The translations under genes and the position numbers were made by a program. Positions 17,810 through 47,717 of a stretch of 64,000 bases of DNA are shown here, piece by piece (within the stretch, counting starts at the first letter, position 1; each line of letters starts with the position of its first letter). The notes under the pieces are model-generated. The model was not told where the DNA came from. It saw only the letters and a list, made by a program, of their open reading frames with translations, and did not search any database. The DNA is from Euglena gracilis. Its lineage: Eukaryota. The stretch lies in NCBI GenBank assembly GCA_039621445.1, contig CP154954.1, positions 22,270,954 through 22,334,953 on the forward strand. The letters run 5' to 3'.

Positions 17810-20800
17810 GGGTGGGTGGGTGCGCGCGTGCGCGCGCGTGTGTGTGTGGGTGGGTGTTCGCGAGCGTGTATGTGTGTGTGCGTGTGTAGGTGGGTGGGTG
17901 GGTTGGCGCACGAACGTGGGTGTGGGTGTGGGTGTGGGTGGGTGGGTGGGTGTGCGTGCGCGTCACGCTTGTTGTGCGCGCACCCGTACGCGTGCGTGCG
18001 CATATGCATCTTTGGGTGCGAGTGGGCGCATGTGACAGAGGGGCGGAGTTCGCGCGTGTTGTTTCGATTTGCACTCGCACGTGCCTGCATGCAACCACCC
18101 ACCCACCCACCCACCCACTCACCCACCCGCATGCACACACCCATACACACACACACACACACATGCCCACCCACCCACCCACCCACCCACCCACACCCAC
18201 ACACACCACACGCCCACCAACACGCGTGAGCGCGCACACCCACCCACCCACCCACGCACGCACACACGCGCGCGCACGCACGCACGCACGCACGCACGAA
18301 CACACACACACACACACATGCGCGCGCAAGTGCGCGCACACACAGAAAGCGTGCAGCACAAAGGGGGCGAGGCACTCGACAGAGATGGCACAGTACCAGT
18401 TGCAGAATGCCTTCAACCACCATTCTGAGGGGGTGGGCGCCAGGCAGCCCCCCCCCCCCCCCCGCAGCCCCAGTCAGCCCTGGCCACGCCCCGGCCGACG
18501 CACAGCGGGGCGGCGGCGCCCAGCAGGGCGGCGTACTCCCCGCCGCACAAGCACCGCAACGCGCTGGTGAGGTAGCGGTTGGCCAGCAGGCCGGGCGCCG
18601 CCTCGGAGGGCAGCCGGACCGCTGGGTGGGGAGGGTGGGGGGAACCTGCAACTGCCAGGAGAGGGGGGATGAGGGTTGAGGACCTTCGCCAGGAGGATGG
18701 AGCACGGGAGAGGGGTTCACCGCGCTGAATGGCAGGTCAGAGTGTGGCATGCGGGCTATGTCTGCCGCTACGATGCACTGTACATAATGCCGAATGATAC
18801 CGCCTGCCTGCAAATCACAAAAATAATCCGCGGAACGTTCACCACCTGAACGCAGCTGGCTTCTGCGAGGGTGATGGACAAGTCCTGCCTGAGAAAAAGG
18901 GCTACCTGTCCCCAAACAGGGGCCCGGCTGACCATGGCGCAGAGACACGCAATCTCCTTCGGCAGAGAAACTCGGCAGCACGGAATCCAGGAAGTCACGA
19001 ACGCGAGTCTGGTACGACTGAAACGGCGCGGCAAACCAGTGACAGGAGTGCTCCCGGCCTGATTCTCCCAAGGCGTGGTAATCATCTGAGCCATCACAAA
19101 ATTTACACTTTCGCTACATTCGAAAAAATATATATTTGTGCTGAACCAGTGGCTCATATCGGTTTGTGATTATTTATTATTATTATTGTTACTTATTATT
19201 ATTTATTTGTTGCTCTGGAGAACGCATTTGTGGAAAACCTTGCACTCGATCAAAAAGCCATGATTTTTTTTTAGTGTGTGTTGGTGTTGGTAACACAACT
19301 CCCTCTTGCCCAAATGTCAATACACTCCGCCCAGGGATCATCATATTGCGGGGGGGGGGGGGGGGCTCCTGGCCGGGCAGGGTCAATAGTGGCGACGGCG
19401 AGGTCCACCAGGTACAGCCGCCCGCCCTCAGCGTCCAGCACCGCGTTGCCACGGTTGCCCGGGTTGTCCCAGACGTCGCCGCAGGCCACGCTGTCGCCGT
19501 TGTTGAGGAAGACGTTGGCGCAGCGGGCCGGCCTCCCTCTTCCGGCCCCCTGCAGCAGCACCCACCACCTGCAACTCTGCGGACAGTGTTCACTCGACTG
19601 CCAGGGTGTCGACACAGCGATAAGATGGAAACCTGCCCGAAGTGCCACCCATGAATGCACCACCCCCAATAATACACCCGGGTATATGATTTGGGCACCG
19701 GAAATGGGGGGCCAGGGAGGTTTATTATTTGAGTTGGGGATATTAGTTGGCGGTGGGGGGGATATGTTATTTGGGAGGGGTGGGAGAGGATTTCTGTCGG
19801 TCTGTCTTTCCGTCTGTCCGTCTGTCTGTCTGTTGGTCGGTCGGTCGGTCTGTCTGTTCCTCTTCTTCTGTCTGTCTGTCTCTCTGTCCTTCAATCTTCC
19901 CACCCTCTCTTTCTCGAAGATGTCACCTGACAAGTCAGTGGGAACAAGCCCAGGTAACAACTTCTGGGGTCTGGGTAGTTTCTGCAGTGGACTCGGACTT
20001 CCAACGTCACAAATCAGTCGGTATGGGACACCTTCCTGGGGTATGTGACAACATGGCAGGTGACAACTTTCCTAGGGGAGGGGGGGGGGCGCCCCTTGAC
20101 ACGTGGGCCAAATTCTTGCTCTTGCTGCAGCTGTGTTTTTCTCCTTGCTGGGTATATGGTTGCCAGCGCACCACACAGGGACACGTTATAATTATATGGC
20201 ACCATACAAAGCCAGATGTGAAATGCATTTTGGGGATTTGTGTTGCCATTTGTGTTGCCATTCACATTAGAAAATGCCAGGAATGCCACATTAGAGAATG
20301 CCATGCAAGGAAACGCAGAGCCACCTTCAACAATCAACAACAGCAAAGGAGCAAAAAAACCTCAAAGACTCAAGGTCATACTTGCAATGGAAGAAAAGTG
20401 AAAGGGACATCAGCATCAAGGCATTAGCCAGAAAAAAAAACTCACAATACCTTTGCAATGGTCCAACAAAGCAATGACAGTCAAAGCGGCCCTTCCGTGC
20501 GGGTCAGGCCGGGCCGCTGCCGAGGAGCACCGCCTTCCCGACGCGGTACAGTGGGCAGTGCCCGTGCGCCTCCGCGGGGCACCGCAGGCGGCCTAGCGTG
20601 TGCCCCGCGTCCCTCAGGGGCCGCCCCGGGACGCGCTCCTGCACCATGAGCTGCGGCCGCTGCAGGGCCCGGGCCAGGGCCCGCTGCAGCCCGGCGGCAG
20701 GGCCGTCCCCCAGGCTGGACGGAAAAGCTGGCGGGGGGGGGGGGTCGTCGCTCCCACCCCCCACCCGGGAGGCGGGGTGGGTCGACCCCCCCCCCACCCA

Positions 20801-23800
20801 TCATGGCACCCGCTAAACGAATTGTCCCCCAGCTCCTTCGGCGCCGAAGGAAAATTTTGATCTAAAAAATCGGCGCCCCCGGGAATACAGAAAGGCCGGG
20901 AGGGGGGGTTGGACCCTCCGAACCACCAGGATGGGTGTGGCAGGGGGTGGTGGCACAGCCCGGGCTGTCCTGGAACCCGGCAGCCTCGCAGGGGGCGGGG
21001 CTGTGGCTGCGGTGTGGCTGGGCCACGCATATGCACGTGCTGGATGGATGGAGGCGGCAGTTCCGGGATGCCTGGGAAACGGTCCTGACTGGGCGTCTCC
21101 TTGAGACTCGGGAGGGGAGCGGCCAAAATACCCTCCACGACCTTTCATTTTCTCCACCATTATCTCAAAACTCTTTGCTTTGTGCCACAAAGGTTCAGGC
21201 TTCCCTCAAAACCCAATTTTTTTCATCGGTTGCTTTTCGCCTATGCACCGTAACTTATCGGCTGGACTCATACGCCCTGTTTGGCCATTGGGCTCGGGCT
21301 CCGGGGCCATATTCACCAAACTGGCCTCAAAGACAGTTTTTTTGGCTGGTTAGTTAGTTGGTTAGTTGATTGGTTAATCAGAATTAGTCCTCCCATGCAG
21401 TCTTATCGCGGGCATTGGTCCAAAGAGCCGAGGCAAATTCCTTGCAAGCTGACTGACCCTGTGAGTCTCGGCGCGGATTCAGCCCAGACCTGAGTTGACC
21501 GAGTGTGTGGGGAGGAGGAAAACAGATTTCTGTGGGAACAGGGGAACAACCACAGAAGGGGGTCTAAATCCCCCAGGAACCAAAAAGATTTACTCCGGTT
21601 CTTCGCGCTGGGAAAGATGAATTAAATGAAAGATGAAAATTTTTGGTGTATGTTTTGCCCAAGTTTTCAAAAAAAAGTGTGCGAAAACGCGATTGTTTTC
21701 AGGTCATTTTTTCAGGGCCAAAATTATTTTCCGGTGCTTTGCGCTGGAAAATTTTTTGCACAGGGGGAGACCCCCGAACACCCCCCTCCGGGGTCCAAGC
21801 CCCCCCCCTTCCTCCCCGCTCAATACCCTCCCCCCCCCCCCGGTCCGAAGGGGGGTGGTCCCCCCCTGTACAAAACCAACCTTCAGTTAATAATGGAAGT
21901 GGTCCAGAAATCAACATGGGTTCCCAGGACTCCTCTCCACATTTTAACCCCCCAAAAATCTCCACCTGAGGATGCTCTCTTGGCCCATTTTGAGGGGGAA
22001 AATTTTCATCCGGTGGGGGTGACAAATGGGCAGCATGGGGGGGGACAAAAATCCCGGGGAAAGGTAGCCCACACATCCAGATTCGGGTGCCCAACTCACA
22101 TATGACGTAAAGTGGTTCCCCCACAGTGAAATGTGGGGTGTGGGGTGCAGTGGAGGGTGAGTGGCTGACTGTGGGTGTAGTGTGGGGCATGGCGGCTGGT
22201 GATGGTGCACTGTCCATGCAGTTTTCTTCTCAGGTCTGACTTAGACGGCCTTAAAGACACTTAAGGGTTTTTTTGCCCGAAAAGTGGATCGTCCGCGGTT
22301 TTGGGATCGGCCGTGATTACATACACGGTGACGGTCTTCCTGCGCCCTGTGTGACTGTCGCACGTGCGCAACTGCGCCCGTGAAGGCACTCTCAATTCAG
22401 TTGTTTAAATTGCTGAAATGTCATGAGTCCCCCCGACAGAGCGGCACCGCCTCCCTTTTCGCAGACCCCAGAATGGCCGATGCCCTCCTGCCCGTGTAGC
22501 GCGACCGTGCCCGCGCAGTCGGCCATCTGTGCGAGACGAGCTCTGCCACCTGTTTGGGATACCGGGTTCTGTATGGGTCAGGCGTCAGTTTGTCACCGGG
22601 GTGCAGGTCGGCACCACCCGTAGACCGCAGACCCCCAGCAGACGGGTGAGTGTGCCGCGTTCTGCGCGAGTTCAGGGTGGGTGGGTGTGCGCATCTCGGG
22701 CGGTGCACGTCAGGGGGACAGCGTTTGTAGCAGTGTGTACGGCGAGTTCATACGGGAATACGAAAACGTGTACAGAAAGTGGCCAGCGAGCACCGGCAGC
22801 CTGAACCGCGCGTGTGCCTGAAGTAACAGACACGAGCGGTGCATCCCCACCTGTTCAAGAGGTGCGGGCGGGTGAGGGCAGACGACAACAGTCCCTCGTG
22901 CGCAGCTGCGCACCAATTTTGCGAAATTTGTAAAAATCAAAAATTTGATCGCAGGTGCGCCTGAGGGACAGGGTACACATTTGTCAGTGAGGCGGACCAT
23001 TCAGATTGTACAGCTCCAGAAGCAGTTGACAATGGGACAAAGAAGACGGTGATGCTTCCGGTCAAACGCCTACCTCTTGCGCCGGAATTCATGAGACAGG
23101 ACGGTGCGCCAACCTGTCACGACAAACGCAAGGCGACCCAGTGTTCGGTCGCCTACGCTGACTTGACGAGTCAACACTGCAGTCCGAAACGCAAGAGTAA
23201 CACGTCCGCGGTGCGCAGCCCCCGCTCAGTCGAAAGTTCTGTGTTGTGCTGTGTACTCTGAACTCGGAACCGGGCGCACCTGCGCCTGGTTCTCTGCTGA
23301 GAGCCTGACTGAAAAACGGTGCGGGCACGTGCACCGTTTGCTGTGTGTGAGGGTGTCATCGCCCATCCGCCTGAAAATTCCCTATCGTGTATTCAACGGC
23401 GTTCATTGTATGCACTCAATACAGGCATCGCGTGCGCACCTGCGCCCGGTTCTCAATTGCCTTATAATATGTGACAGTGCCAGGCGCATATGCGCACGAT
23501 CAGCCAGGGTGACGGGCGCACAGGGCCGCTGGATAGGCCACAGTGAAGACCAGTGAAGACGGTTGGGATGGGAGAATCAAGTTACCCACGGTCGGTGTTG
23601 GTGTGAACCGGGTGACGGAAGCAGGCATCGGAGCTTCGTCTCGGCCCCAGAAAGCGCGGGCAGGGCGACACACTGCGCAGCGACCTCATCGACCCTGCCG
23701 GTCCCCGCCACCGTTGCTGCGGCCGTCCTCACCGCCGATGTCGAGTTCCACCCCGCCGGGCCGCGGCATCCGGCAGCGTGGGACACAGCAGTACGGCGAT

Positions 23801-26800
23801 GCGCTGCGGCGGGCGGCGGACTCTGGCAAGGTGATGGGCGAGCTGGCGGCGCGGCACCTGGTCCGGACCTTCGACGAGTTCGTCCGGGGCGTGCTGGCCC
23901 CGCCGGAGCACCACCTGCTGCCGTTCGTCGCCCACGTGGCGCACATGCGCCGGCCGCTGCGGACGCGGGGCAGCGGCACGCTGCTGGAGGAGCTGCAGCG
24001 GAACCCCCGGCGGCGGAGCACGACGGTGCTGCTGCAGAACGCCTGGGCGTACTACCGTATCGCCCGGTACGCGGCGTGCCCGCGGCAGGACCAGCCCCAC
24101 GTGCCCGCCGGCGACGTCCCGATGGGGTGGACGCGGGCGGTGTCCCGCTACCTCCGGTCCGCCGGCATCCGCCCCGAGGCGCCGCTGTGGGACGCGGCGG
24201 TGCGGCGGGAGCTGGCGGCCCAGCGGCTGCGGCAGCTGTGGGCGGACATGGAGGGGGCGCACGTGGTGGTCTGGTTCGACAACCTGTACCGCCAGCGGTA
24301 CGTGACCACCCCGCGGGTGCCCCACGCGTCCCTGAACGGCACCATCATGGCCGTGATGCGCCGCACGGACCCCGCCGCCGCGCGCCGGGAGCCCGCCCCG
24401 GCCCTGCCCGCCGTGCGCGTGCTGCTGGCCGACGCCGCGGCGCAGCGGGGCTCGTACCGGTGGTGGAGCGAGAGCCTGGCGGCCTTCGCCCGCGGCCCGC
24501 TGGTGGACCTCCTCGCACGCTGCCGCGGCCCGCTGGCGGAGGAGCAGTTCCGGGTGCCCCTCGACGTGCCGCGCGAGAACGCCTGGTCCCCGGTCTGGCG
24601 GCCGTTCAACCTGTGCGAGACGGTGGTCGGCGCCCAGGTGGGCCTGCTGCAGACCCTCCGCTTCCTCCAGGAGAACGTGCTGCCGCAGGTGGCCGGCCCC
24701 GTCCTCGTCCTGGCGGACGAGAACATCTGGTACCGCGCCGCGCGGCTGCGGTACGGCCAGCTCTCCGCCACCCGCTGGGACCTGACCGCCACGTTCGACC
24801 GGCTGCCCCTGCTGTACGGCGTCTGGCACCCGTACAAGCAGCTGCTGCACGCCCTGCACCGCCGCTTCCTGCCGTTCTACCTGTTCCTGCAGAACGGCAC
24901 GCTGGAGGTGACGGGCCGGCCGCGATCCCCCTACGCCCCCGTGCAGACGCTGGAGCGCTGGCTGGGCGCGCTGCTGCTGGTGGGCGAGGAGGAGGAGCGG
25001 GCGCAGCTGCGCGCGTGGCGGGAACGCCTGGCGACGCGGGTGGGGCGGGTGGAGGCGGAGGTGCGGGCCGGGGCGGCGCGGGGGGAGGCGCCGCGGAGCG
25101 AGAGCGCGTAGGTGCGCCCGGGGACACCGGCGGCGCCGGGTGCGGGGTCCGGCTTCGTGGGGCCCCTGCAGGTGGCCGGAGCGTCCGGGCAGGCGGCGGA
25201 GGAGGAGCTGCGGCAGGGGTGCCTGGCGCTGCAGCGGCTGTGGACGGAGGCGGCGGTGGTGGACGGCTGGCGGGACCTGGTGGAGGTGTGGGCCCCGGCC
25301 GCCCTGGTGCTGGGCTGGATGGTCCGGTCCTGCAGCTGGGACGGACGGGCCGCCGGCAGCGGCTGGCAGGCCCGTGAGGCGCTGCAGACGGCCCTGCTCC
25401 TGCTGGTGCACCTCGAGGTGGGCGTGCCGTCGGCGGCCGCACCGGCCCCCGCCCCGTGGGCCGACGGCCTTCCCCCGCCCGAGGCCGCCGCGGCCGTGCT
25501 GGCGGAGCTGCGGGCCGCGGAGCGCGGCCGCCCGCCGCGGGCCCGGTCCTCCTCCGAGTACGTGCGGACGGTGTCCTGCGCGCTGCTGCTCTGGACGGAG
25601 TAGCACGACCGCCTGCCGGCGTGCTGCTACTCCGAGGAGCTGAACGAGGCCGCCATCAGCCGCCTGGGGAAGGCCCTGAAGCAGCACCCGCAGTCGCAGT
25701 CCTTCGACGAGGCGATGGACCTCTACATCGCCGTGCGGCCGGGCATCCCGGGGGCCAAGCGCATCGGCGCCGGCGGCGTGGGGCGGGAGTGGGTGGCGCA
25801 GTCCACGGAGCGGCTCCGGGACCTGCTGCGACGCTGCGCACCGCGGCGGAGCGCACCTGCGCCCGGCAGAGCGGTGGCAACGTCCGCGGCCACGGCGGAT
25901 GGCGGCGGCCGCGGCCGGCGTCCGGCGTCCGGCGCCACCCGCCCGGGCCGGCGCCGGCGGGGTCCACCGCTGCGGCGGGCCTGGCGTCGCCGGAGCTGGC
26001 CGCCCGGGTGGTCACGTACGTGGAGCGGAGCGGGGCGAAGGAGTGCGTGGCGCAGGCCGCGTGGCCCTCCTGGTGGCGGCCCCCGCGGACACCCACGGCC
26101 GCGCCGCCGCCCGCCGACGACCTGGCCGACGTGCTGCGGCGCAGCCTGCTCCTGATGCTGCGCGACGAGGAGCCCTCGGCCGACGCGGCGGCGGAGCTGG
26201 ACCTGCTGGCGGCCCGGCAGCCGGAGGCCGCCAGCGCGGCGCTGCGGGCGGAGTACGCCGGCGTCCCGGTGCCGGAGCGCGCCCCCAAGGCGCGGGCCGC
26301 GGGCCCGCGGCCGGTCCCGCCCGCGGTCGGCCGGCGTCCCCGGCCGCACCGGGGTGGACCCAGACCCAGACCGACTGTTTTCTTGTCGGTTCGGAGTGTC
26401 TGCGTCTGTGTCCGGTGTCCCGTCGGGTTGTTGTTTTGGGTAGGCACGCACCCGTCTGTCGGGGTACGTCATGTCCCTCCCCGGGCGACTGTCTGGCGCC
26501 GCTGCGCACGCTTTGGGTTCAAACGCAGAATTCACGCGCACCTGCGCACGCTGCCCGCTCGATTTCTGGTTAGTCAATTCGTATGGTTCCGGTCCCGTCA
26601 CCCCCCCCATGACAGTGCGCACTCCCGCACAGGTGAACGCACGACCTTCGTGGGGCGGGCGTGTCGCAAACCGGACCCTGGGTTGTCCCTCCATCGCAGG
26701 TGCGCTCGCTTGCGTATCCCCCCCCGGTGTTTCCCCCCCCCCCCCCCCCCCCTCGTTCCGGTCGCCCGGGGCGTGTCCACTCCGGCACCCAACTGCCGCC

Positions 26801-29800
26801 GTTGTGCCCCAGAGACCGAAGCCCGCCGCGGCCGGAGGTGCGGACGCAGCGGCGCGCCGGGGCCACCGGCGGCCACGATCGGGCGAGGCGACTCGGTCGG
26901 GTACGCCGGCGGCTGCGGTGTCCTCCGGCGCAGCTGCGCACCCGGACGCCGGGGCTGTCCCACAGCGGCGGTTCACCCGTGGTGTGCCGGCTGAGCAGCA
27001 GATCGCACTGCGGCCGCGGCGCGACCGGTCGGCGGAGCCGACGGGTCCGGCGACCCCGTCCGGTGCGGCTCCCAGCCTGCGGCGCCACCACTTCGGTGGT
27101 CGCGTGCGCGCCGCCGCCACCCCCTCCGCCGACTCCAGCGGCGGCGGCAACGTGTACCTCCCGGACGAGCCGCCCGGGCCGGAGGAACACTGAGGACGCG
27201 GCGGGTCGGCGGCGGGGGCGTGCGGCGGGCCCGGACTTCCGACCCTGGGCAGGTGCAATCGGTCTCTTTTTTTTTGTGTGTGTTTCCTCCACACGGCGTG
27301 GTTTTGTATTCTGAAAGATGGCGCGGATAGCCCTTGATCGCTAGAATACCCCGCCCCCGGTCGCCGGACCCAACGGTGCCCGGAATGGGGAGCTTCGTGT
27401 TCCGGACGCGGGGGTCGGAATCTCCGGCCTCGCGACCGAAATCCGCGACTTGAGGACTTTTGTGAAACCGTGTTGTATTCTGGGGTTTTCGCCGCCGATA
27501 GGACCTCGCAACTTCCCAAACTTGTGGATCGGGTTGTAGGCGATCAAAAGGGACCGGGATCCCAATTCGGCGGACATTCGCAGTGAAAGTCCGTGTTTTC
27601 GGCAGTTTGGGGGGGTGTTCCGGCCGATCCGGGGGCTTTTGGCCTGGGCAACCTTCCTCCACCAGGCGGGGGGGTGCGGACACAGGGGGCGGGCCCGGCG
27701 GCGGGGGGTCTGGCACCCCCCACCCGAAATCAACATTTCGATCATGCCATCGCCCAGATTCCCCAGATGAAAAAAAATGTGTTCTCTCCCTGCCCAGGTT
27801 TACAGAATGTGAGATGGAGGAGGGGGGGCCGGGCCCCCCAGCTGAGGGGTCCGCGGCGGCCGGGGGCCCGCAGGGCGGGGTCCCGGCGGAGGCGGCGGAG
27901 CGGACAGAGAGGAAGGAGAAGGGGAAGGAGAAGGAGAAGGAGCGCAAGCGCAAGCGCCCCCAGCCCCTCGTGCCGTCGGGGGTGGAGGACGTGCGGCGCT
28001 TCGTCGAAGGCTGGCGGGACCTCGACGTCGGCTGCCTCGTCATCGACGAGGACCTGACCAAGGGACAGATACGTCCCGTGCGGCAGCCGGCGGTGGAGGA
28101 GAAGTACAACGCCCTGGTGGTGAACCCCCCCGACCACCCCGTGGAGGTGGTGGTGTGGGCGGCGGACCCGCTGGGTATGTTCCCTGTGGTGCGGGGTGTT
28201 GGGTTATGGCGCGCACCTGCGCGCGTCGCCCCTCCCTTTGCCGAAAGTTTTTGGAAACCCTGAATGCATGTGTGCAGATGCGTGCGCACCTGCGCCTGGC
28301 TTCCCCTGTCCCCATGCATACCGTGGCCGGGAGGGGTTTGTTGTCTCCGTGCCCCTCCCCCCTCCCCCTGCCCCTCCCCTCGTAGGTGCCAAGTACGTGG
28401 TGATCGGTGGACAGCACGTGGTCAGCGCGCTGCAGCGGCTGCGTACGGAGTACGCGGCGCGCCGGGAGGAGTACCCCCAGGTCCTGAAGGTGGTGCGGGC
28501 GAAGGTGCTGCGGCACGACACCCCGCTGGCGATGCGGCACGCGGCGGCGGGGGACGCCCAGCACGCCCAGAGCACCGTCCGCGCCCTGCTCCTCAGCGAC
28601 TGGGCCACCCTCCTCCTCACCCCCGACGTCAAGGGGCTGGCCGACCCGGCGGAGCGGCTGGCGGCGGCCATCCGCAAGGCGGGGTTCGCCGAGCGGACGG
28701 CGAGCCGGGTGCGTGCGTTGCTTGTTTCGGGTTGCGGGGTGCACGATACGGCGGGTGCCCGGTTGTGGTTATATTGCTTCGATTCGCGCGCACCTGCGCA
28801 CGTTCTTCACTCCAGTGGAGCTGGCACGCGCACCTGCGCACGATTACAGTGCTTGTTCGTTCGTGTTCAGCCCCCTCCACCCCCCCTCTCTCTCCCCGTC
28901 GTAGGAGGCGGTGGGGAAGGCGTACGGGCCGCTGCAGCGCCTCGTGGAGGAGCAGCCCGCGGCGGCGGTGGCGGGGCTGCGGGCGATGGAGGCGGCGAAG
29001 CCGGGCCTGACGGTGAACGGGCTGCGGGGGCTGCGCACGCTGCTGACGCCGGGGGCGAGGGCGGCGCTGGTGCCCACCCTCCTGCAGGCCCGCCTCCGCC
29101 CCAAGGACCTCGACAACGCCATCGGCCGCGCCACCCACGACATGTGGATCAACTTCCACTGGCGCGAGGGCAACCCCTTCATCGCCCCCCAGATCCGTAT
29201 GCCTCCCCCGCTTGTGTAATGATTGCTCAACGGGTTGGCTCACCCTCGCGCGCACCTGCGCACCAACTCGCACGCATGGCTCTTTTGGACATCCTCCACT
29301 TTGGCGTGCGCACCTGCGCGCGTCATTGCCATTGCCATGCACACGCTGGGTCACCATCCACCCCACCCCACCCTTCCCTCCTTGCCTTCGCAGTGGCGGA
29401 CCACGTCGCCAAGGCGCGGTTCGTGGCGGCGGTCCCCACCCCGGCGCTGACGGTGCGGCTGGGCGGGTGGCGGTGGACGGCGGCCAGCGAGGCCCCCGGC
29501 TGGGACTCCCTCATCGCGGCGCCGGTGTGGGTGGAGTCCAAGTGGGACGCGGCGCGGAAGCTGGTGGCGCAGCCCCGCCAGATGCCGGAGGTGCGGGCGG
29601 TGCCGAACGTGGCGGCGCTGAAGCAGCTGGACGTCCCCGTCGGCGAGGAGGGCCGGAGCCGGGCCTTCCTGTACCCGGCGGCCGGCGAGCTGCCGGCGAT
29701 GGCGGCGGCGTGCCGCATCAAGGCGGCCTTCCTCCTCGCGCAGCCGCCCCCCGAGCCGGCGCTGCAGCTGTGCCCCCAGGCCTGGGGGCTCGTCGAGACC

Positions 29801-32800
29801 GTCCCCGTGTTCGTGTGGGGGCGCCCGGGGCGCGTCGCCGCGGCGGTCGCCACGATCCAGGGCCGCGTCGAGGAGCGGGCGCGGCGGGACATCGACGTGT
29901 GGGTCCGGGAGACCACGGTGCGGCAGATCGGCGCGAGCCGCAGCGCGCTGGCGAAGCGGCAGCTGACCATCCTCCACGCCGGCGGGGTGGACCTCACGAG
30001 GGTGTGATTCCCTGTCCCAGCATTGTCGAAGATCTTAAAAATCCCCGGGCGCACCTGCGCCCGGGGATTTTTTTTGCGTTCCCCCGCTTCCGGAGCAAGT
30101 GGCGCGCACCTGCGCGCGACACCCCACCCCTGTCCTCACACTTCACTGGGCTTGGGTGTTTTGTGTAGTGGCATTGGCATTGGCATTGGCATGGGGCGTC
30201 CGGAGGGTGGCTTGCCCCCCGGCGCACCTGCGCCTGCGCCCCCGCCTCCACTCGTAGGTCGCGCCGGTCGTGATGTGGGACGAGGTCACCTCCTCCGCCG
30301 ACTTCGACGTGCTGCACTGGTACGTGCTGAGGTGGGCCGCCCAGAGGGTCGTCCGCGACTTCGCCCCGGAGGACTTCGTGTTCGTGCAGAGCGCTGCTGA
30401 GGACGCGGAGTTGGTGGGCCACTGCCTGGCCTGGGGCAAGCGGCCCCTGAACATGGTGGTGGCGGTGGACGGGGAGGCGGTGGACATGGAGGCGGTGGCC
30501 CACAAGGCGGCGGACGCGGGGGCGGACCAGTGCCCGGTGGAGGAGGAGCTCTTCGAGGACATGGAGCAGTTCCTGGAGAAGGGCCTCAGCCTGGAGCTGG
30601 TGCGGACCGTCCCCGAGATCCAGCGGAAGCTGGAGTGGGAGAAGGCGAAGGAGGACGCCCGCAAGCTGGAGCGGGTGAACCGGGAGGAGAACAAGAAGCG
30701 CCGGGAGCGAGACCGCAAGGCCAAGGCGCGGGCGGCGAAGCAGAAGGCGAAGGAGAAGGACGACCGACGGGCCGCCCGGGAGGCGACGGCGAAGGACCGC
30801 CCTGCGGGCGCCAAGCCCAAGGCGAAGAAGAAGCCGGGCAAGCCCAAGGCTGCGGGCGCACCTGCGCCCCGCCCCCAGGCCAAGGGGAAGGAGGTGAAGC
30901 GCCGCACCGCGCCGCGAGCACCGCCGGTCGCGGTCAGCAGCACCGAGGACTCCAGCAGCAGCAGCAGCGGGGAGGGGGAGGAGTCCAGCAGCCTGGCGGA
31001 GGAGGTGGAGGTGGAGGAGAGCCCCCCGAGGCGCGAGGGTGGTGACCGTGGAGGCGGCGAGGGTGGTGACGCCGGCGGCGGTGGCGACGAGGGCGTCGGC
31101 TGGGGCGGCGAGGGCGAGGGCGAGGAGGAGGGCGGCGACGAAGGGGAGGGCGGCGGCGAAGGGGCGGAGGCCGCAGGCGAAGAGGGGGAAGAAGGCGGAG
31201 GGGAGGCGGAGACAGCCGAAGGCGAAGAAGCCGAGGAGGCGGCGGCGGGCGCACCTGCGCCTGAGGAGGCAGCACCCCCCGGTCCCCAGCAGCCCCCTGA
31301 AGCCCCCGCGGAAGAAGCCCCCGGTGGGAAGAGGCGGCGCCAGGTGGAGGAGTCGGGCGCAGCTGCGCACGAGGAGGCCAGTGAGGGGGAGGAGGACTAC
31401 AGCGTCACCAAGGTGGTCTTCGGCATCAGAGACTCCCCGCCGCCCCCGGACACCCCCCAGCCCCCGCGGAAGCAGCCCCGCAGCGCGGCCCCCAGCGCCA
31501 GCAGCCCCGCCGCCGGCTCCCCCGGCAAGCAGCCCCGCCCGCGGCCCCCCACCTCCGAGACCCCCTCCTCCAGTCCGTCCAGCGCAGCCGCGCCCGAGGC
31601 CACGACCCCCCACCAGCCGGAGCCCCCCTCCCCGCAGCGGCCGCGCGACCGGGTCGACCCCTTGGAGGAGGACAGTGCCCTGAACCCACCCCCTGCGGGC
31701 GGGGACTCCCCCCTCATCCCCTTCTCCTGCCCCCGTGACCCCCTCCCCGACCCTGGCTCCTCCTCTCCCCCGACCCCACCCTCCAAACACAGGGTGGTCC
31801 GCAAGGGCGACCCGGCGCCGTGAAGACGTGCGCACGCCCCGGCCCCCCGCCCCTCCGCCCCACCCCGCCCCTGCCGTCCCCAGAGGAGCTCTCCCAGTCC
31901 AGCCCCGAGGCCGCCCCCAAGCTGCCCCCCAAAGCCACCACCCCCTGGTCGAAGCCCGACCCCCGGCCCAAGCCCGCCAAGCCCCAGGGCCCCAAGCCCA
32001 GGGCCCCGCCGCTGCCCTCCCACCGCGCCCTGGCCACCCCCACGCCGGAGACCACCCCCCAGGCCGCCTACCTCAAGAAGCCCTGGAACCCACCCCGGAA
32101 GGCCCCCCCGCCGGCAGCCCCCGCGGCCCCGCCCCAGCCCGTGTGGTCCCTCCTCCCGCCGCCCCCAGCGACTCCCCCAGACGTCCCGCCCGCTGCAGCG
32201 CCCCAGCCCCCCAGCCCGACCCCGCCCCCCGGCGCCACCAGCCTCCTCCCGCCCCCGGCCAAGCCAAAGCCCGCGGCGGTCACCCCGGCGGCGGCAGCGC
32301 TGGCGCAGCGGCTGGCGAAGCCCCCGGCGAAGGACTACCCAGGGGCCGGGGTTTCCAGCCGCCTGAGGCGCCGGCAAACGGCTCCCCTTTTCCCTCGGTC
32401 GCACCTGCGCGCGACGGAATCCCCTCTCGTGTCCTTTGCGGGGGGCGGGGCCCCTCCTTCCAGTGGCAGAATGGTGCAGCCCCCTCTCGCACAGACGCGC
32501 GCACGTGCGCACGCACCCCACCCACCCGGTGCGGGCTAGGCCCTAGTACACGCAGGGTTGGGCTTGGGTGGCTGGTCGGGTGCTCACACACACCCCATCC
32601 CCCTTTGCCCCACCCCAAACACTGGCACAGGACGGCCCCTGCGGGTGACCTGCGCAGGTGCGCGCGCTGGCGCGGCGCGGCGTGGAGACCGGCCGGGGCG
32701 GCGAGGCGGCGCGGCGGCGAGGCGGCGCGGCGAGGCGGCGGCGCCCTCACCCCTGTGACACTTCCCCTCTACCCTCTGCACACATTCAACCGTGTCGGCC

Positions 32801-34666
32801 GGGACACTCGGGTGAAAGACCGTTCCCCCTCCCCCCCTCTCACCCGTGTCGTGGCCCCCCTCTCGTGGCAATGCACCCCCCTCTCGTGTCAGACCCTGGG
32901 GTGTCAGAGTGTCCCGGCCCGCCCTCATGCCTTCGGCAGCCCCTCCTTTCCCCCTGGACCTTCCCTCCCTCTCCCCGTGGACCCTGGACCCCTGCACCCC
33001 TGCACCCCTGCACCTCCCTTCACCTCCCTTCTCTTCTGTGGAATTGCAAAGCAAACGGGAGGGGGGTGGGGGTCAGTGCCCAGTAGGTGCGAGGCGCAAG
33101 GACAGGACGGGGTGGGCGGTCCTCGGTCGCAGGTGCGCACGACCCGGGGGCAGTGGGCCTGTGGTTTTTGGATGTCCCCCGGGTGGTGGGTGCCGGGCCT
33201 GTGGGCCCCAGCCGGCGGTGAGTTTTTTTTTATTTTCGGCCTCCGCCGGGGTTTCAACCCCCGGCAGGGGCAGACACCGGACAGGTTTCGAGGGGTCCAA
33301 AAAGTGTCCCGTTTCAGTGCCTTTTCGGGGTTTTTACCCCGGTCAGTAATTTTAGGTGGGACATAAAATAATTCAGGTTTTGACTTGTCGGGCTTACAAG
33401 CACGGTCACTCTCAAAATTGAGGACGCAAAATTGCCTTTGGTGTCCTCGTGCGCACCTGCGCCCAAATTGAAAAAAAACCCTTAAGTGTCTTTAAGGCCG
33501 TCTAAGTCTGATCTGGTGTTTGTGACTTTCGGCTACATCATGCGAAATTATACCCGCTTTCTGCTTCATTGGAATGTGTGTATGCTGAACAGGCCCAAAA
33601 GTACAAACAGGCGGATATTCGGCACCTTGGTACTGTGCTGTCCACATAGGATGTTGGGTTAGGGTTAAAATTAGGATAGCAACAATGGTACCTGAACAGT
33701 AGTACACTTAAAGATCATCAAACAACCTGGCACATAAAAATAAATCGAGCCAGCGGCCATTAACTACTGCCCCCCCCCAAGGGCCCTGTGGTTCACGGGG
33801 GGACCGGGACCCAAAATGGCCTGTGTTTTCCCGCTGCTAAAATAACGGAAAGCACTGCAAAAAAATGCCTTTAAAACCCCATCAGCTTGCGTTTAAGAAA
33901 GTGGACCTCCCCCCTCATTCAACTACCAGGCCCTCCCTTCAGGGGGGGGGGCAGTAGTTAAACTAGTGTGGAGCCCGACTTTGAACAAAGGAGGATGATG
34001 TCTATTTGTTTATATTTATTCATATATTCGTATGGATATATATAATATATTATATATGGCAGCAAGATTCTACTTGCCCCCCCCCCCCGGAGGGGCCAAG
34101 TATAATCTCCAGGGGGGCGGGGGTCCACGTAGCATCTCCTGCGTCCGATCTTCCGGAAACTTCGGGGTTGTTTCTTGGGATAGGGTTAGGGTTGCAACCA
34201 AACTCCCGGCGGGCTCCCTCTTTCGGGGAATTTAAGGAGAGTCAGGCCGCATTTCCGACGGTTTCCCACCGACTCGGGGAGACCGAATCGGGGTCGATTT
34301 TTGGTAAAATTACGACAAAAAAGGCGACCCAAAAATCTTCCAGAACGACGACCTAACTTCCGGCCTAACTTTGATACTAAAAAGTGCTTTTGGCGGCCAA
34401 TCCTAACCTTAACCCTATTCCTCCAATTAAGTGCTGAATCTCCCCGGATCCGACCGATTTTGCCCAGATCTGGTGCCGTTCCAGGGCCCCGCGGGACCGA
34501 AACGGCCCGAAGGTCGGACGCGGGAGATGCTACTTGGACCCCCCCCCCTGGAGATTATACTTGGCCCCCAGGGGGGGGGGGCAAGTAGAATCTTGCTGCC
34601 ATATATATGTGTATATGTATATGCCATATATATACACACACACATATATATTTATATGTATGTATG

Positions 34667-34711
<45 letters not shown>

Positions 34712-36225
34712 GGCAGCAAGATTCTACTTCATATATCCGGGGGGTCTGGGGAGCACCCCCGGAGAAGGCTGAAGGCCGCGTAAATCCAAAAATGATGTCA
34801 AAAAAATCAGCCCCAAAAAGTGATTTGCTGGAGGGGTAAAGTGTGAGGTGACTGCAGCACTGTGGGTGCAGTTGTGGGGTGGCTTTGGGGTGCAGTGCAA
34901 GGTACTGTGGGGGCTCCACTGTTGGGCATCCCTTGCCCAACTTGGCGTTGAGGGTGACCCCAATTCCACGGACACATGGCGGCCAAATGGCTGTTCCACA
35001 CCCAGACCCCAGACGGTCTTGCCACAAACGGGGGAAAACCCTGCCCGGCGCTATTCCCCGGCAAGTGGGCGGCCTCCTGCAGCAGGTGCCAGGACTTGAG
35101 GGCAGACCTTCCTTTTCGAACCGAGTTCCCCATCAAACAAGACTAACGCTGTCTTTGCTTTGGGCTGTGCCATCCTTCAAACCGCACAAAAGCTTCCTCA
35201 GTGGAAGAATTGCACTGCATGTGGTACAAGCCAAAAGTTCACAACGGAGACTGTCACCGCCATACACCATTAGAAAATAAAAAATAAAAAAATGGCGTGA
35301 TTTTGTCCACAGCCTATGTGTTTTCTGAGTGATTTTGCCAATGGGGATAAAATTAGCAAGTTGACCACGTGACCCTTCCCTGAAGATACCAACCTTGGCC
35401 AATCCCAAGGGGGATTTTATCCCTTCGGGTGCATCGTACATCCAAAAATTTTCATCTCTCCAAAACTGCCCAAATTTGAATCTTTGGGGAGATTCTGGGA
35501 CGACAACCAACGCGACCCAATTTGACATGACCTGTCTCTGTGTCAGCCGGTGCTACCTCGGATGCCGTCGGGTCCATCACCGGGCGGGGGAAGGGACGGC
35601 CTGCGCCGAGGGCCAGGCCGCGACGGCGCAGCGCGGCGCGCACACCCCGAGACGCTCCGCCAGCAGGCTTCTTTTTAAGACCCCGGGGGGGGGGGAGGGG
35701 GGGTCCCCCCCACCCACCCAGGGTGGCGCGGGACCCCCCCCCCCGGGGGGGGGGGGGGGGGGCGGGGACCCCCCCAAAATCGGGCCCGTTAAAGGCAATT
35801 TTCAAAAATTTTCGGCGCTTCGCGCCGAAAAGGTATACTCAGCGCCTCTGGCGTGGGACCCCCCCCCCCGGGGGGTCCGGCCCGGACCCACCCACCCCCC
35901 CCAGGGGTCAGGTGACTTAAAAAGAAGCCTGTCCGCCAGGCCCGCCGCGAAGGCCTCGGCGGCGATGGCTGAGGAGCTCTTCAGCACCCGGTCCAGGGCA
36001 CTGCGCTGGCTCGGCTTGCGCCGCCGCCCCCGCCGATGCAGTCAGCCAAAGGGCCCCCGCAAGATTGGAGCGTCTCACTCGTTGCAGAGGGCTGCTTCCA
36101 AAAGCATAGAGTTTTTGAAAGGGTACTGAGCGCGCCGGCGTGTTGCCAGCATGAGGAATGCTCCCCCTGTGCTCTCCCTCTTCCCTCCTCTCATTCTGAA
36201 TGCTGTGTGCATGTGCTGTGTGTGC

Positions 36226-40608: not shown

Positions 40609-43600
40609 GCCCTGGCCATCCAACTTTGAGGCATCCTCCAGGTGGATGCAGAGGGAAGAGGGCGGGAGGGCGTCCCGTTTCGTCGATATGCCAACGGCCC
40701 CATCCAGTGTGAAATGACGACTGTCGGGCAGCTGGAGCAGGGTTGTTCCTTTGGCCATTGGAAGGAGGGCCGGAGCGTACCACCCGCCCAAACACATGCA
40801 GCAACTCAGAAACAACCCTGATTGGAAGATGTGACTGCCCAGGGTCAGAGACAGGTCCTCGGTTCAAAAAGTACAGCCGGAGTCCGCTCATCAAATTAGA
40901 AGGCCACCGGTGAACAGAACACTGGACTACACTAAACTATGACAAAAAAGACAGCTCTCAGGATGGGAGGGGCTCTTCAGCACACGGAGGGGAGCGGGTG
41001 GGGGCCTGGGGGGAACGCCGAAATGCCGGCGGAAGGGACGGAGGCGCGGCACGTGGCGGTCGCTCTGCCGTATGAAAAGGTCCGTGACAGAGCCGGCGGT
41101 CAGCAGTAGGTGGTGGGTGGGGTCGGGGGTCAGGCTGGTTTTAAGACCACGGGACTCCGGGGGGGGGGGGGGGGGGGGGACCCGGCATTTCTAACAGTTT
41201 TCCTGCGCTTTGTGTCGAAACCCACCCACCCAACCACCCACCCCCTGGGTGGGGGGCTTTCCAAGGGAAAAAGGAGCCTGGGCGGGGAGGTTCCGGCACG
41301 CTGCGAGGAGGTCGGCCAGCCCCTGCTCGTCCACCAGGCCGCAGGCAAACACTCCTCTGGGGAAAGTCCCAGCGGCCAGAGGGCAACAACGCTGTTGTTG
41401 GCTAACCCACGGAGTCCGACAGTGTCGTGAACAACCTGTTCACAATTGTGCTGTAGTCCCCCCGGGGGGGGGGGGGGGGGCTGGGTTTGTATGGGAAGCC
41501 CTGGGGGTCCAAGCCCTCCCCCAACGAGGGGTGGGTCGGACCCCTTCCTACCTCAAAAAGGTGAGGGGCCGGGACAATTTTCGGTTCTGTGGACGGTCAA
41601 AAGGCTGGATACCAGCCAAAATCGTTGAAAGGTCCCTGGTTTTTCTTTAAGAAAAAACCCCAAAAAGCTCAGTTTTCGAATTCTTCGAAAAAATTTTATG
41701 TGGGAAACACCAAAAGATAAAAAACGTCGCATTTTAAGGTGCGCAGCACCGCAAAATTTTTCGCTATTTTTGGAACCTGAAAAGGGGGGGCTGGGAGTCC
41801 GGGCACCCTTCCGGGGGGGGGGGGGGCCGGGCCCCCCAACAACCCACCTATACCGGACACCGACAGGCTTCCCAGACATCCCTGCCTGGAGGGGGGTGTT
41901 CTTTGGCGGTGAGAAACAGCCTGAATGCGACCGCTGCACCACCCCACCGGGCAAAGATTTGCCTCAGGCGAGCCAGGGATGGAAGGGATGGAACGTGTGA
42001 TGCCTCACTGGACAGCGAACAACGCGCCGGTGCAAAGTGTGCCAGTGTGGTGTCCACCTTCCGCGTAAAACGTTGGAGGATTGCGCCCGGCGGGGCGGGT
42101 CGGACGGGGCCGGTGAACGTCATGCAACGGGAGCCAGGGGGCCTTTGGGCGCTGCGGGGCCCGGCGGTGGCGGTGGTGCACAGCAGCGTGTCGTCCACGT
42201 CCCACACGATGAGGGTGGCCCTGCCCATAGGCATTCCCTTCGTGAATACGCATTTCCTTGGGCCCAACCCCACCTTCTTTCAGGTGCCCACCCACGCACG
42301 ACCCCCCAGGGAGATCAATCCACCCACCCACCCATTCACCCACCAAAACCTAACCTCCCACCCCAGCCTAATAGAAGCATGGGTGCGCGGACCGCCGCCT
42401 CTGGCGGCGAGGGGGGGGGGGGTGCGCTGGTATTTGGACCCAAGCCGTGTGATTTTTGTTGGTTTCCTTCAGATATCTTATCATAAACGGGGGGTGCTGG
42501 ACCGCCACCTTCGTTGGGGGGAGGCGTTTTTATTTGGACCCTGCGCTTGTGGTGGCCCCGTGCTTCTCTTAGGGGGGGGGGTGCCAATTGCCCGAAACCC
42601 TTGAAAACACTTGTACCAGGCCAGACTGATCCCTCTCTGGGGGTTTAAGAGAATCTATGGCCCCATCGCAGAGGGGCAGCAGCTCCGTGTAGCGCTGGAT
42701 CAGGTGGGGGAAGCAGTGCCGGTGGCTGGCCATTTGCGTGGGGAGGAGGAAGGGGGTGGGGCTGAGGCACGAGGACACCGGGGAGTGGGAAAGAAAGGGG
42801 GGGGCCGCGCCACACCGAGCCAGGGACCGGGGGCAACGTTGCGGAGGACACCGGCATTGGGTTTCACCGCCCGGCCGACACACCACAACGCCAGGCTTTC
42901 CAGCCAGCAGCTCGTAGCTGGGCTACGGACCCCCCCCCCCGGGGGGTCGAACGGTAATAAAGTTTCACAGCCTACAGGCCGGTCGACTGGCACGTCTCCA
43001 GGCATGCACCACGCCCCTGAATGGCGAAGCCACCGGCGGAAGGCGGCGCACACCCGTCCAAACTGCTGGAAGTGCTCCCACAGGACCTCTGTGGTGGCGG
43101 TGGGCGGCAACGCCCCGATGAAGATCCGCCGCGTCCGCATCACCGTCGCCAGCTCCTCCTCTGCGGACCCGCAACGGGAGGGGCCCGGGAACGGAGGCAC
43201 TTCAACCATTTCCCGCCCAGAGGCTACAGCGCCCAGTCAGCCCCCTGGAGGGAACTCTGAGCTGACTGACGCTGAAGGTGGTGCGATGAGTTGCTTTGCC
43301 CAACTAAAGCGATGGGGGGGGGCCCACTTGCCGTCCCTGGCCGACGTTTGGCCTCGCTGCAGCTCATTCCCACGGAAGGGAACACAAATGCAAAAGCAGA
43401 AGCGTGACAGCCGTCCATCCAATAGGCAAGTTAACTCTCGGCTGTATGGAATGGAAAGATGGTTCTCGTTCTTCTTTTGAGCGTTTGGCTGGGGGCGGAG
43501 GACCAGTTGACCAGGCGAAGGCGAGGGGGGAGCGCGCAGAGGCTGGGGAATGAGGCGCACCAGGGACTGCACTCTTCACGTCGAGGGTGTTCCCCTGCAA

Positions 43601-46600
43601 TGTGTGGGCATGCACCATCGGCGACAAGAAACGGGCGTTGACGAGCGGCGTGCCACCCCGGGCTCTGTTTCATCCGTCCCAGGTGGGTCTTGGACTCTCC
43701 AGTCCCCCCCCATTCTGAGTAAACAACAAAAAATTCCCATTCATCATTTTTTCTGATCATTTCCACAAATTTTCGAGTGCTTGGAGCCAGGACTTTATTT
43801 AGACTCACACAAATAACACACTTCCCACCACTGAATCGAGACAAAAGATAAACCTGTTACACCGTTTGGAAACCTTTCAGAAGCATATGCTGCACCATTT
43901 GGTGGGGGATTTGACTCAAAGGGTTACGTGCAACTGGACGCGATAAAAACATCAGAAGTGTGTTTCATCCGTCCTCACAATCCAAAACCAGAAACAATTT
44001 TCTTCCACAGAAAACAACAAAAAACAGGTGCAGGGGTGCAAAGGAGAGGGGCAAAGAGCATTCCCGCCCCAAGTTCTGTGCCCACAAATACCAAAACAAA
44101 ATTGTCTCCTCCGGCGGAAGTTTTCCTTCAAAGCCTGTGCCACCCTGGGATCTGGGCGCGACCAGACGACGGCGCCTCGCAGCCGTTCCTGGGCAGTCCG
44201 TTGCGCACCGCCTCCTCCGGGCTGGTAAACGTCACGAAGCCAAAGCCCCGCGACTTGCCATCCTGGACGACGACGCGCGCCTGCTTCACCTGGGGGGGGG
44301 GGCAGGGCGGTGTGGCGGTGATGCACGCGTCTGCCTGGGGTGGGGGGTGGGGGGGGTGGCAACTTGCAGCCTTTTGGACTCAACCACTGGCTGTTGGCAA
44401 CAGGGTCATCGGTGAAGGCGTCCTTTGAAAAGCCAATGAGCATTACTGTTGGGCAATCTTGCACTGACCTCTTGTTAGTAGAAGGACCAAGAAGGCGACC
44501 GAATCCGTTGCCCAGCGAAATGCAGGAGACGGTGGAGAAAGAAGATAGCCAACTGGACCGCATTGGTTTGAAAATTTGGAGTGGTGGAGGGCCCATGCCC
44601 CTCCTTTCTTGACAAAAACCATGTGCCTGCGGCCTCGGCATGAGCACAGCCAGAGATAGAATAAAAAAAATGCAATCACCAACACACCTCACCGAAGCGC
44701 AAGAAATAGTCCCGGAGGTCCTCATTTGTGGTGGCTCTGTTCAGCCCGCCAACGAAATACATACCTGGCAGACGGCGGGAAAATGGATTCATAAAATTCC
44801 TGCTTCGGTTTGATCCATCCGCTCCCGAGCCAGCTCTAAAGGCTTGGACTGCGTTTGATTTCAGTGGAGCTGTTCGGCCCTCCCGCCACCTCGGAACAGA
44901 AAGCCCCCCCCTCCGTCACTTGGCCATGGGGTGTGGTCCAAACCCAGAGCCACCGGACTGCTGGCCGAACTTGGAGCGGGAACCCTCTGCCCGTGAGGCA
45001 CAAACCCCCGATACTGGGGTTGTGATGCACAGAAAGCCAACTTTGGGGCACTGAGGGCGACCCCAAAGAAGGGGGAGGCAGCGCGCGGCGGTGTGAAGAG
45101 GGGGGCCGACCGGTGACGTCCTGCGCCCGGCGGGGCTTCTGGCCCGGGAGGGGGAGCGGCGCCGGCGGCCCGAAGGCGGCCGCCGCGCTGTCCCAGTGCG
45201 TCGTCCCCAGGGCTGTACGGGGTGGCCTGGGGGGGGGGGCGACCAGGCTGTTTCTAACCCACCCGGGGGGGGAGGGGGGGTCCGGAGTGCCTGTGAGTGC
45301 CTGCCCAGGCAGACACCCCCCCCCCTGTGTGCACTGTGGCTGTTTTTTTTGGTGCCTTTTATCCCTTCTTCTGGCCCGGCGCTGTTGTTCGCCTCTGGCC
45401 CTTTTTGTCTGTGTACGTGGAGGTGGCCGGACCCCGGGGGGGGGGTCGGCACCCAACTAAAAAACAGCCTGGGGGCCACCCTCCAACCTGGAGGTGGGGG
45501 GTCGACCCCCCCCACCCACCACAACATTTTCACAGATTTTTTTTTACAAATCCACCCGGCGCCTTTGGCAGTGGGAAAAAAATTTGGGGTCGAAAATTGG
45601 TGCTCCCAGAAATACGGCATGAGGTGGTGGGGAGTGGTCGACCGCCCCCTCACCCACAATGCAGGAGGGGGGGGGGGTCGACCCCCCACCATACAATTTT
45701 TTACCGACCCCTCGAAAAACCAGTCAGTCACTTTTTTGGGAAACCAGTCAGTCACTACCCCCGGGGGGGGGGGGGTCGGCCACTCTGGAATCCAAAGGAA
45801 ATTTGACCAAAAACATGAAAAAAAGCCATTTTTTTCCGGTGCCTTCAGCGCCGGGTCACTTAAGTGGATTTTTGCTGAGCCCCCTGGGGGAGGGGGTCTG
45901 GGCCAAAAACCAGTCAGTCACTCTGAAACAACCAGTCAGCCACCCCCCCCCCCGGGGGGGTCAGCCAGTGACGAAGTGATTGACTGCCCCCCACCACCCT
46001 GGCTGTTTGGCCGCTTCCCGTACTGCCCTGGTCCTCGCCCCTGGGCTGGGACCGCCATAGGGGGGTGGGGGGCCGGCCATGAGAGCGGCAGGGAACGCCG
46101 CACCGGGCCGGCCCCCAGCGGGGGAGGGCGCCCAGTCCGGGCTGGGGGCAGGCCCCAGCAGGGGCGTGGCCTCCGGAGGGGGGGGGTCTCCGTGGGGTCT
46201 GGGGTGAGACCCCGTATTGCACCGGCATTGCACCCGCACTGCACCTGCACTGCACCCGCACTGCACCCGCACTGCACCCGCACTGCACCCGCACTGCACT
46301 AGAAGGTGTGCCAAATCGAGGCGGGGTGGCTGGGGAGTGTCGGGTGGCGGAACGCCCCCGAGACACAACTGCAGCCCTGTGCGGCGTGTGATTTGGACGC
46401 GCGAACACAGCAGAACTTGGGCGAATAATCTTGACATTAACGCGCAAAGAAGCTATCCATTTCTTCGGATGGGTCTGTGTCTTTCACGCAAGATTCATCA
46501 AACAAAAAATAGAAGGGGGAAACCACAGGTTTGTTTGACAGGTGGAGGCCATTTACTGCAGAAAAACCTCTGAAACGTTTTGGGGTTGTGTCTAGTGCAA

Positions 46601-47598: not shown

Positions 47599-47673
<75 letters not shown>

Positions 47674-47682
47674 TGTGTGTGT

Positions 47683-47717
<35 letters not shown>

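What the first reader, a model, noticed from the sequence alone, without database searches (positions are those of the whole stretch)
35656..35939. Youngest-looking MITE-intron: perfect 16-bp TIR and perfect 8-bp TSD inside a kinase motif
The element splits AEAFAAGLA|ERLGVCAP of the AFK N-lobe. A diverged member of the same TIR family (CAGGCT..TTTTAAG) forms another intron at 41125-41283 in the same locus, so one family has produced introns twice here. This is the best single test case for recent intron gain.
Basis: seen in the sequence. Interest (0 to 1): 0.8.

Follow-up and report, generated by a model that had tools for sequence, protein, structure and literature searches.

The report
Polymorphic mini-transposon forming a euglenid intron
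A small, very abundant jumping element sits inside a coding exon of a Euglena-type gene, is likely absent from some copies of that gene in the same species, and has exactly the ends that would let these algae's odd non-GT-AG splicing cut it out cleanly, so it likely shows a new intron being born.

Summary
Observation confirmed: a 268-nt element (35664-35931) with perfect 16-nt inverted ends and a perfect 8-nt target duplication (TSD) interrupts a minus-strand exon. Removing 276 nt restores the frame; retention gives a stop. None of the 9 possible cut positions is GT/GC-AG. One fits the Euglena nonconventional-intron code (N3-CAG...CTG-N5|purine) exactly, and its 3+5 spacers are one copy of the 8-nt TSD. 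The family is very abundant (thousands-fold contig depth), and three introns of this gene keep 7-8/8 TSDs. Added at this locus: contig ends in a DNA run are best explained by empty alleles, probably beside a filled allele on the same haplotype. So this is likely a segregating intron gain, and a plain RT-PCR loss of 276 nt would not prove splicing. Splicing of the filled allele is predicted, not shown; the AFK label and hAT parentage are leads. A MITE origin was proposed in 2014, and a strain-specific intron with an 8-nt repeat was published in 2016. My paper searches did not find the hAT 3+5=8 link, but this scan noted it earlier (93 notes; the 8 shown lie on other DNA of this genome).

The parts
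35656..35663 (.). left copy of the 8-nt target-site duplication
   Evidence: identical to 35932-35939
35664..35931 (.). 268-nt non-coding MITE with perfect 16-nt TIRs (35664-35679, 35916-35931) starting CAGG; very abundant family
   Evidence: 9734 contigs laid in DNA run X1; 13+19 contigs with foreign flanks ending at 35663/35664
35932..35939 (.). right copy of the 8-nt target-site duplication
35659..35934 (-). predicted 276-nt nonconventional intron: 3 nt of one TSD + element + 5 nt of the other TSD; CAG at +4..+6, CTG at -8..-6, next exon starts with G
   Evidence: 1 of 9 slid cuts fits the code, 0 of 9 GT/GC-AG; ends pair in the MFE fold, z -7.0
35935..35988 (-). upstream exon of the host gene (upper end predicted from the code)
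   Evidence: about 4 RNA reads at 35970, none at 35995
35607..35658 (-). downstream exon
   Evidence: 34 read-bases = 2 reads x 17 exonic positions in bin 35576-35623
35047..35097 (-). next exon
   Evidence: 3.8 read-bases = 2 x 2 positions in bin 35096-35143; lower end predicted only
41125..41283 (-). older predicted intron from a diverged member of the same family (element 41131-41280; TSD 4/8; 3+6 spacers)
   Evidence: no RNA data
16565..17061 (-). second young predicted intron in the same gene, different CAGG family (element 16570-17058), perfect 8-nt TSD, frame restored
   Evidence: no RNA data
20693..35046 (-). predicted 14.3-kb nonconventional intron of the same gene with a 7/8 TSD, holding other large elements
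   Evidence: no RNA data for its ends
45244..45471 (.). further member of the CAGGCT TIR family with a 7/8 TSD, nested in a larger CAGG-ended element (45208-46030)

Best explanation
The element is a recently inserted, likely hAT-type MITE that likely segregates with empty alleles and is predicted to be removed from the RNA as a euglenid nonconventional intron. Shown: TIRs, 8-nt TSD, exonic position, high abundance of the family, transcription of the flanking exons, exact fit to the published splice code. Inferred: a transposase supplied in trans inserted it and duplicated 8 nt. In the pre-mRNA the TIRs pair, and the unknown nonconventional machinery cuts 3 nt before the CAG and 5 nt after the CTG. 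Because 3+5 equals the TSD length, the cut removes the element plus exactly one TSD and restores the original message. An insertion of a CAG-ended, 8-nt-TSD element whose TSD position 6 is a purine would thus be an intron from birth. TIR and TSD later decay, as in the older introns of this gene (8/8, 8/8, 7/8, 4/8, 3/8).
For: (anatomy, frame). (1 of 9 cuts fits N3-CAG...CTG-N5|R, 0 of 9 GT/GC-AG; retention stops at codon 61; TSD identity of five introns). (terminal helix; 0 of 200 shuffles fold as well). (CAGG...CCTG pairs with an 8-nt repeat: 4 in the window against a mean of 0.17 in 30 shuffles; repeat lengths 6, 7, 9, 10 gave 1, 2, 0, 0). (element depth 0.8-1.0 million against 127-168 in the flanks; other copies end at the same base).+51 (of four haplotype models only 'filled + empty on haplotype A, empty on haplotype B' gives both the 130-nt contig starting at 35932 and the 149-nt contig with 19 non-element letters). 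(PMC12501133: fully synthetic introns with these features were spliced in E. gracilis; spacers of 3 and 5 are preferred). (PMC4770533 Table S3: the strain-specific gapC intron 4 has its 8-nt repeat split 5|3 in the same way; read by eye). (a hAT transposase relic lies in the window). (8-bp duplication and short TIRs are hAT features).
Against: No RNA joint across the element was displayed (9 joint rows were hidden). Only 1 of 3 RNA runs had exonic reads, about 4-5 of them, and 2 of 4 at 35970 carry the haplotype-B letter, whose DNA likely lacks the element. The empty allele is inferred from contig ends, not from displayed letters, and one unlisted SNP position was fitted after the fact to give 19. 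One contig (record 4) is ambiguous: if its 3 unaligned letters lie right of the TSD, the filled allele's left junction is missing from that run's graph. Run X1 reads C at 35577 at full depth where the window has T, so the window's own haplotype is not seen there. No transposase with this family's ends was found; the hAT relic seems to start at a TAGGG-type end. The organism is inferred, not given. The 41125 intron needs 3+6, and the two oldest introns keep little TSD.
Confidence: 0.75

Rival explanations
1. The insertion is real but not spliced. It is a young null allele (stop at codon 61 of the retained frame) tolerated because empty alleles supply the protein, and all spliced-looking RNA comes from empty alleles.
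For: Empty alleles inferred. 2 of 4 RNA reads at 35970 are haplotype B, and the other 2 could come from the empty form of haplotype A. No RNA joint displayed.
Against: Exact match to every element of a code shown to be sufficient in knock-ins. Two other introns of the gene with 8/8 and 7/8 TSDs have the same geometry and also restore the frame.
Confidence: 0.13
2. The element is fixed in all alleles, and the 'empty allele' signal is an artefact of contig building around a very abundant repeat, or of cDNA or pre-mRNA in the run. It would then be an ordinary young nonconventional intron.
For: Only contig coordinates were seen, not the 19 letters; 14% of run X1 was not read and the tool filters records.
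Against: A both-filled model predicts 19 element letters that would have aligned, and never a contig starting at 35932. The contigs concerned run on into intron sequence on both sides (35545-35606, 35989-36061), so they are not mature mRNA.
Confidence: 0.07
3. The 8-nt repeat comes from double-strand-break repair that captured a repeat fragment (the reading of Milanowski et al. 2016 for gapC intron 4), or from a transposon superfamily other than hAT that also makes 8-nt TSDs.
For: Published alternative. No partner transposase identified. P elements and some others also make 8-nt duplications (recalled, not tested).
Against: The insert ends exactly at perfect TIRs, many other copies end at the same base, and four CAGG-ended elements in 64 kb share the fixed length 8; break repair gives no fixed length. 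A hAT relic is present in the window.
Confidence: 0.05

Closest known systems
Euglenid nonconventional introns, code 5'-N3CDG-/-CH'GN5-6|R (Nomura et al. 2025, PMC12501133)
   Same: CAG at +4..6, CTG at -8..-6, paired ends, purine-initial next exon, no GT-AG, slidable ends
   Different: Here the spacers are visibly one 8-nt TSD and the body is a high-copy MITE. In the parts I read (1-4 of 6, with the Discussion) the paper suggests only MITE-like elements and does not link spacer length to TSD length.
Strain-specific gapC intron 4 of E. agilis ACOI 323 (Milanowski et al. 2016, PMC4770533)
   Same: Recent gain within a species; 8-nt direct repeat split 5|3 around paired ends
   Different: Read there as break repair, with no repeat family reported in the passages seen and ends starting CAT. 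Here a family is evident, and filled and empty forms likely occur within one run.
MITE-origin hypothesis for nonconventional introns (Milanowski et al. 2014, PMC3935182; review PMC11282704)
   Same: TIRs and TSD-like repeats at the junctions point to MITEs
   Different: No superfamily or TSD length named: 'hAT' has 0 occurrences in both main texts.
Introner elements of Micromonas and others (as described in PMC11282704)
   Same: DNA-transposon-derived introns that use the TSD for scar-free removal; mass intron gain
   Different: Introners supply or co-opt GT/GC and AG sites for the spliceosome. Here no such site is used; the cut is measured from the TIR ends and falls inside both TSDs.
hAT-superfamily non-autonomous elements (Ac/Ds, Tol2; PMC4818426)
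   Same: Short TIRs, 8-bp TSD
   Different: Partner transposase not identified; exact RNA-level removal is not a general hAT property (recalled).

Membership tests
Euglenid nonconventional intron | CDG at +4..+6 and CHG before a 5-6 nt 3' spacer | tested here: met
   cut 35934-35659
Euglenid nonconventional intron | purine as first base of the next exon | tested here: met
   (G)
Euglenid nonconventional intron | ends brought together by base pairing | tested here: met
Euglenid nonconventional intron | no GT/GC-AG borders | tested here: met
   0 of 9 positions on the gene strand
Euglenid nonconventional intron | removed from the mRNA of the allele that carries it | tested here: inconclusive
   no joint displayed, few reads, empty alleles confound
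Euglenid nonconventional intron | host is a euglenid | tested here: inconclusive
   organism is coded; inferred from introns that fit the code, with RNA edges at three predicted exon ends
Euglenid nonconventional intron | released as a full-length RNA circle | not testable with these tools
   feature taken from PMC11282704
MITE | short, TIR-bounded, flanked by a TSD, no transposase | tested here: met
   268 nt
MITE | many copies with the same ends | tested here: met
   (depth, 9734 contigs, shared boundary); not a copy count
hAT superfamily | 8-bp TSD | tested here: met
hAT superfamily | short TIRs | tested here: met
   (16 nt)
hAT superfamily | autonomous partner with the same TIRs that encodes a BED/DDE/dimerisation transposase | tested here: inconclusive
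   relic at 61142-61977 (zf-BED 7.8e-9; Dimer_Tnp_hAT 0.076, below cut-off) does not show this family's ends; no homologue
Spliceosomal introner | GT/GC donor and AG acceptor giving exact removal | tested here: not met
   in-frame GT-AG pairs exist only inside the element and would leave element sequence in the mRNA
Actin-fragmin kinase (host gene) | match to the AFK catalytic domain family | tested here: inconclusive
   no Pfam hit on single short exons, no PDB match, kinase-clan lead under 0.9; the spliced protein was not searched

The most novel reading that the evidence does not exclude
Euglena's nonconventional splicing code is the footprint of hAT transposition (spacers 3+5 = the 8-bp TSD; the shared purine at both junctions = TSD position 6), and this locus is an intron gain still segregating inside a cultured lineage: filled and empty alleles on an otherwise identical haplotype, made by a MITE family that is active now or was very recently.
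Probability: 0.5. Interest if true: 0.8.

Novelty: new variant of a known kind. Interest (0 to 1): 0.62.

Why it matters
Nonconventional introns are 71.8% of E. agilis introns (PMC12501133), and their origin is stated there as unclear. A named, high-copy family whose insertion geometry equals the splice code, caught with and without the element on the same haplotype, turns the MITE hypothesis into direct tests. One can compare expression of filled and empty alleles, count exonic insertions by TSD position 6, and look for the transposase. It also suggests why this splicing system exists: it would make a whole class of exonic insertions harmless.

Tried and rejected
No whole genome is held, so copies could not be counted or classed as exonic or intergenic. 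No indexed holder is on record as RNA (no evidence either way). RNA runs X24 and X15 had no exonic depth. The phmmer search with the 37331-37537 exon gave 3 hits, all repeat-rich proteins, judged spurious. Homologue searches with the kinase-loop exon and the BED exon found nothing (weak evidence). The PDB search gave no kinase. The Atlas search of the 20513-20692 exon was uninformative. The element's 5' end had 0 matches in JGI metagenomes. The automated junction search covered 16 exon pairs that I chose by eye. It was clear for 4 (35935|35658, 35607|35097, 35047|20692, and 17062|16564, ranked second behind a G/C-run artefact); the rest were ambiguous, missed or empty and were left out of the counts. 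Spliceosomal excision was rejected. Literature searches returned mostly unrelated genomes.

Full report
Observation. The 8-mers at 35656-35663 and 35932-35939 are identical and flank a 268-nt element with perfect 16-nt terminal inverted repeats. It was the only exact 8-nt repeat plus TIR hit in the window under that scan, against a naive expectation of about 3e-6. The frame then stays open for 109 codons across three predicted junctions, while retention stops at codon 61.

Splicing route. The cut can slide over 9 positions; 0 of 9 have GT-AG or GC-AG ends on the gene strand, and 1 of 9 (35934-35659) has CAG at +4..+6, CTG at -8..-6 and G as the next exon base. That is the code defined by knock-in in E. 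gracilis, where synthetic introns with these features and paired ends were spliced (PMC12501133; main text parts 1-4 of 6 read; supplement files 1 part 1 and 8). The predicted intron folds with its ends paired (z -7.0, 0 of 200 shuffles). The 3-nt and 5-nt spacers lie inside the two TSD copies and sum to 8, so the cut removes the element plus one TSD (shown by the sequence). The first base of the intron and the first base of the next exon are then the same TSD position, which would explain the published purine at both places (PMC4770533 passage; inference).

The pattern repeats in the gene. The intron 16565-17061 has an 8/8 TSD and restores the frame; 20693-35046 has 7/8; 41125-41283 has 4/8 with a 6-nt spacer; 35098-35606 has 3/8. 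These five are the junctions I could place; 16 exon pairs were tried and the others were ambiguous. CAGG...CCTG pairs with an 8-nt flanking repeat (at most 1 mismatch) occur 4 times in the window against a mean of 0.17 in 30 shuffles, and lengths 6, 7, 9, 10 gave 1, 2, 0, 0.

Abundance. In DNA run X1, 9734 contigs were laid on 34760-36190. Summed depth reached 0.8-1.0 million inside the element against 127-168 in covered flank bins, and 13 and 19 contigs with foreign flanks ended at 35663 and 35664. The tool warns that this is no copy number; it does show a very large family with a shared boundary.

Presence and absence. In the same run, one contig (record 6, depth 61, five differences, four listed) aligns from 35932, the first TSD base, with 19 unaligned letters before it. 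Another (record 7, depth 83, identical to the window) begins exactly at 35932. A third (record 4, depth 136) ends its alignment at 35663, the last base of the left TSD, with 3 unaligned letters. I simulated k=31 unitigs for four haplotype models. Both-filled predicts 19 element letters that would have aligned. Only 'haplotype A filled + A empty + B empty' gives a 130-nt contig starting at 35932, for either SNP position tried, and it gives the 149-nt contig with 19 flank letters when the unlisted fifth SNP is placed at 35943 (fitted). These contigs extend into introns, so they are not mRNA. I take empty alleles as likely (about 0.85) and filled plus empty on one haplotype as probable (about 0.6). 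Against: the letters were not displayed, 14% of the run was unread, record 4's orientation is ambiguous, and X1 reads C at 35577 where the window has T. Ploidy of E. gracilis is described as unknown, with a polyploid configuration suggested (PMC9836076 passage), so three haplotypes are not implausible if that is the species.

RNA. Of three RNA or RNA-like runs laid, only X21 had exonic depth, all with first mates on +, as expected for a minus-strand transcript in most stranded libraries. Read-bases per bin fit the code-predicted exon ends: 34 = 2x17 at 35607, 3.8 = 2x2 at 35097, and no reads at 35995. This supports transcription and the code. It does not show splicing of the element: no joint was displayed (9 rows hidden), and 2 of 4 reads at 35970 carry the haplotype-B letter.

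Parent element and host gene. An 8-bp duplication with short TIRs is a hAT feature (PMC4818426 passages). A decayed hAT transposase lies at 61142-61977 (zf-BED E 7.8e-9; dimerisation domain E 0.076, below cut-off), but it does not show this family's ends, so the partner is unknown. The host looks like a kinase-fold protein with an N-terminal HAD-like motif (motif recognition recalled). AFK was not confirmed. 'Euglenid' is inferred from intron anatomy; the organism label is coded.

What is known. A MITE origin was proposed in 2014 (PMC3935182 passages) and repeated in 2024-2025 (PMC11282704 passages; PMC12501133 Discussion; PMC12621601 and PMC11170887 passages). A strain-specific intron with an 8-nt repeat was reported in 2016 and read as break repair (PMC4770533 passages). 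Its Table S3 shows the repeat split 5|3 around paired ends (whole supplement read), which fits the geometry independently. Searches for Euglena + introns + hAT + target site duplication and Euglena + intron + presence-absence polymorphism returned 0 papers; searches listed none that states the link by title or abstract. Subscription journals and bioRxiv supplements are outside this library, so the link may be in print. This scan had already noted the 3+5=8 reading: 93 notes hold the search words, and the 8 shown lie on other DNA of the same genome. I wrote the idea down before seeing them, and they are not independent support. Two notes report empty sites in a neighbouring copy or a paralogue; none held all the words for an allelic polymorphism.

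Verdict. A real, very young MITE in an expressed exon, with the exact anatomy of a euglenid nonconventional intron and likely still polymorphic. Best explanation 0.75. It is a new variant of transposon-born introns and a good test locus for an open question; interest 0.62.

Noticed in passing
window 61142-61977 (+): Frameshifted, shortened hAT transposase relic (BED finger, dimerisation-like end), downstream of a TAGGG-type end near 60579 and two tRNA-like stretches (about 60770-60970).
   Followed up: partly
window about 22240-33510: Large GC-rich element inside the 14.3-kb intron, with inverted ends (near 22245 and 33500), many copies of a 12-nt motif and several long plus-strand ORFs with no Pfam hit (4 pieces scanned); its own introns appear to be GT-AG.
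   Followed up: partly
window 34058-34600: 543-nt element with perfect TIRs and a TA-repeat target, a different MITE class.
   Followed up: no
window about 52660-56080: Tc1/mariner-like transposase pieces (HTH_Tnp_Tc3_2, E 2e-7), interrupted at 53532 by a CAGG-ended element.
   Followed up: partly
window 58382-59302 (-): Open frame that resembles the start of a non-LTR retrotransposon reverse transcriptase (recalled resemblance; no Pfam hit).
   Followed up: no
window 35995: The haplotype-B SNP turns the upstream intron's CTG into CCG on the gene strand, a change at the degenerate position of the splice code.
   Followed up: no
window 51096-51427 and 45208-46030: Further CAGG-ended elements with 7/8 and 6/8 flanking repeats; the second lies between exon-like stretches of an RRM-type gene at about 43000-52000 (-).
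   Followed up: partly
window 42190-42231 (-): The first exon of the host gene has a HAD-like aspartate motif, which suggests a phosphatase-like plus kinase-like fusion (recalled motif; best Pfam hit E 0.16).
   Followed up: no
window 19385-19525 (-): The putative catalytic-loop exon lacks residues expected in an active AFK-type loop (recalled), so the protein may be a pseudokinase.
   Followed up: no
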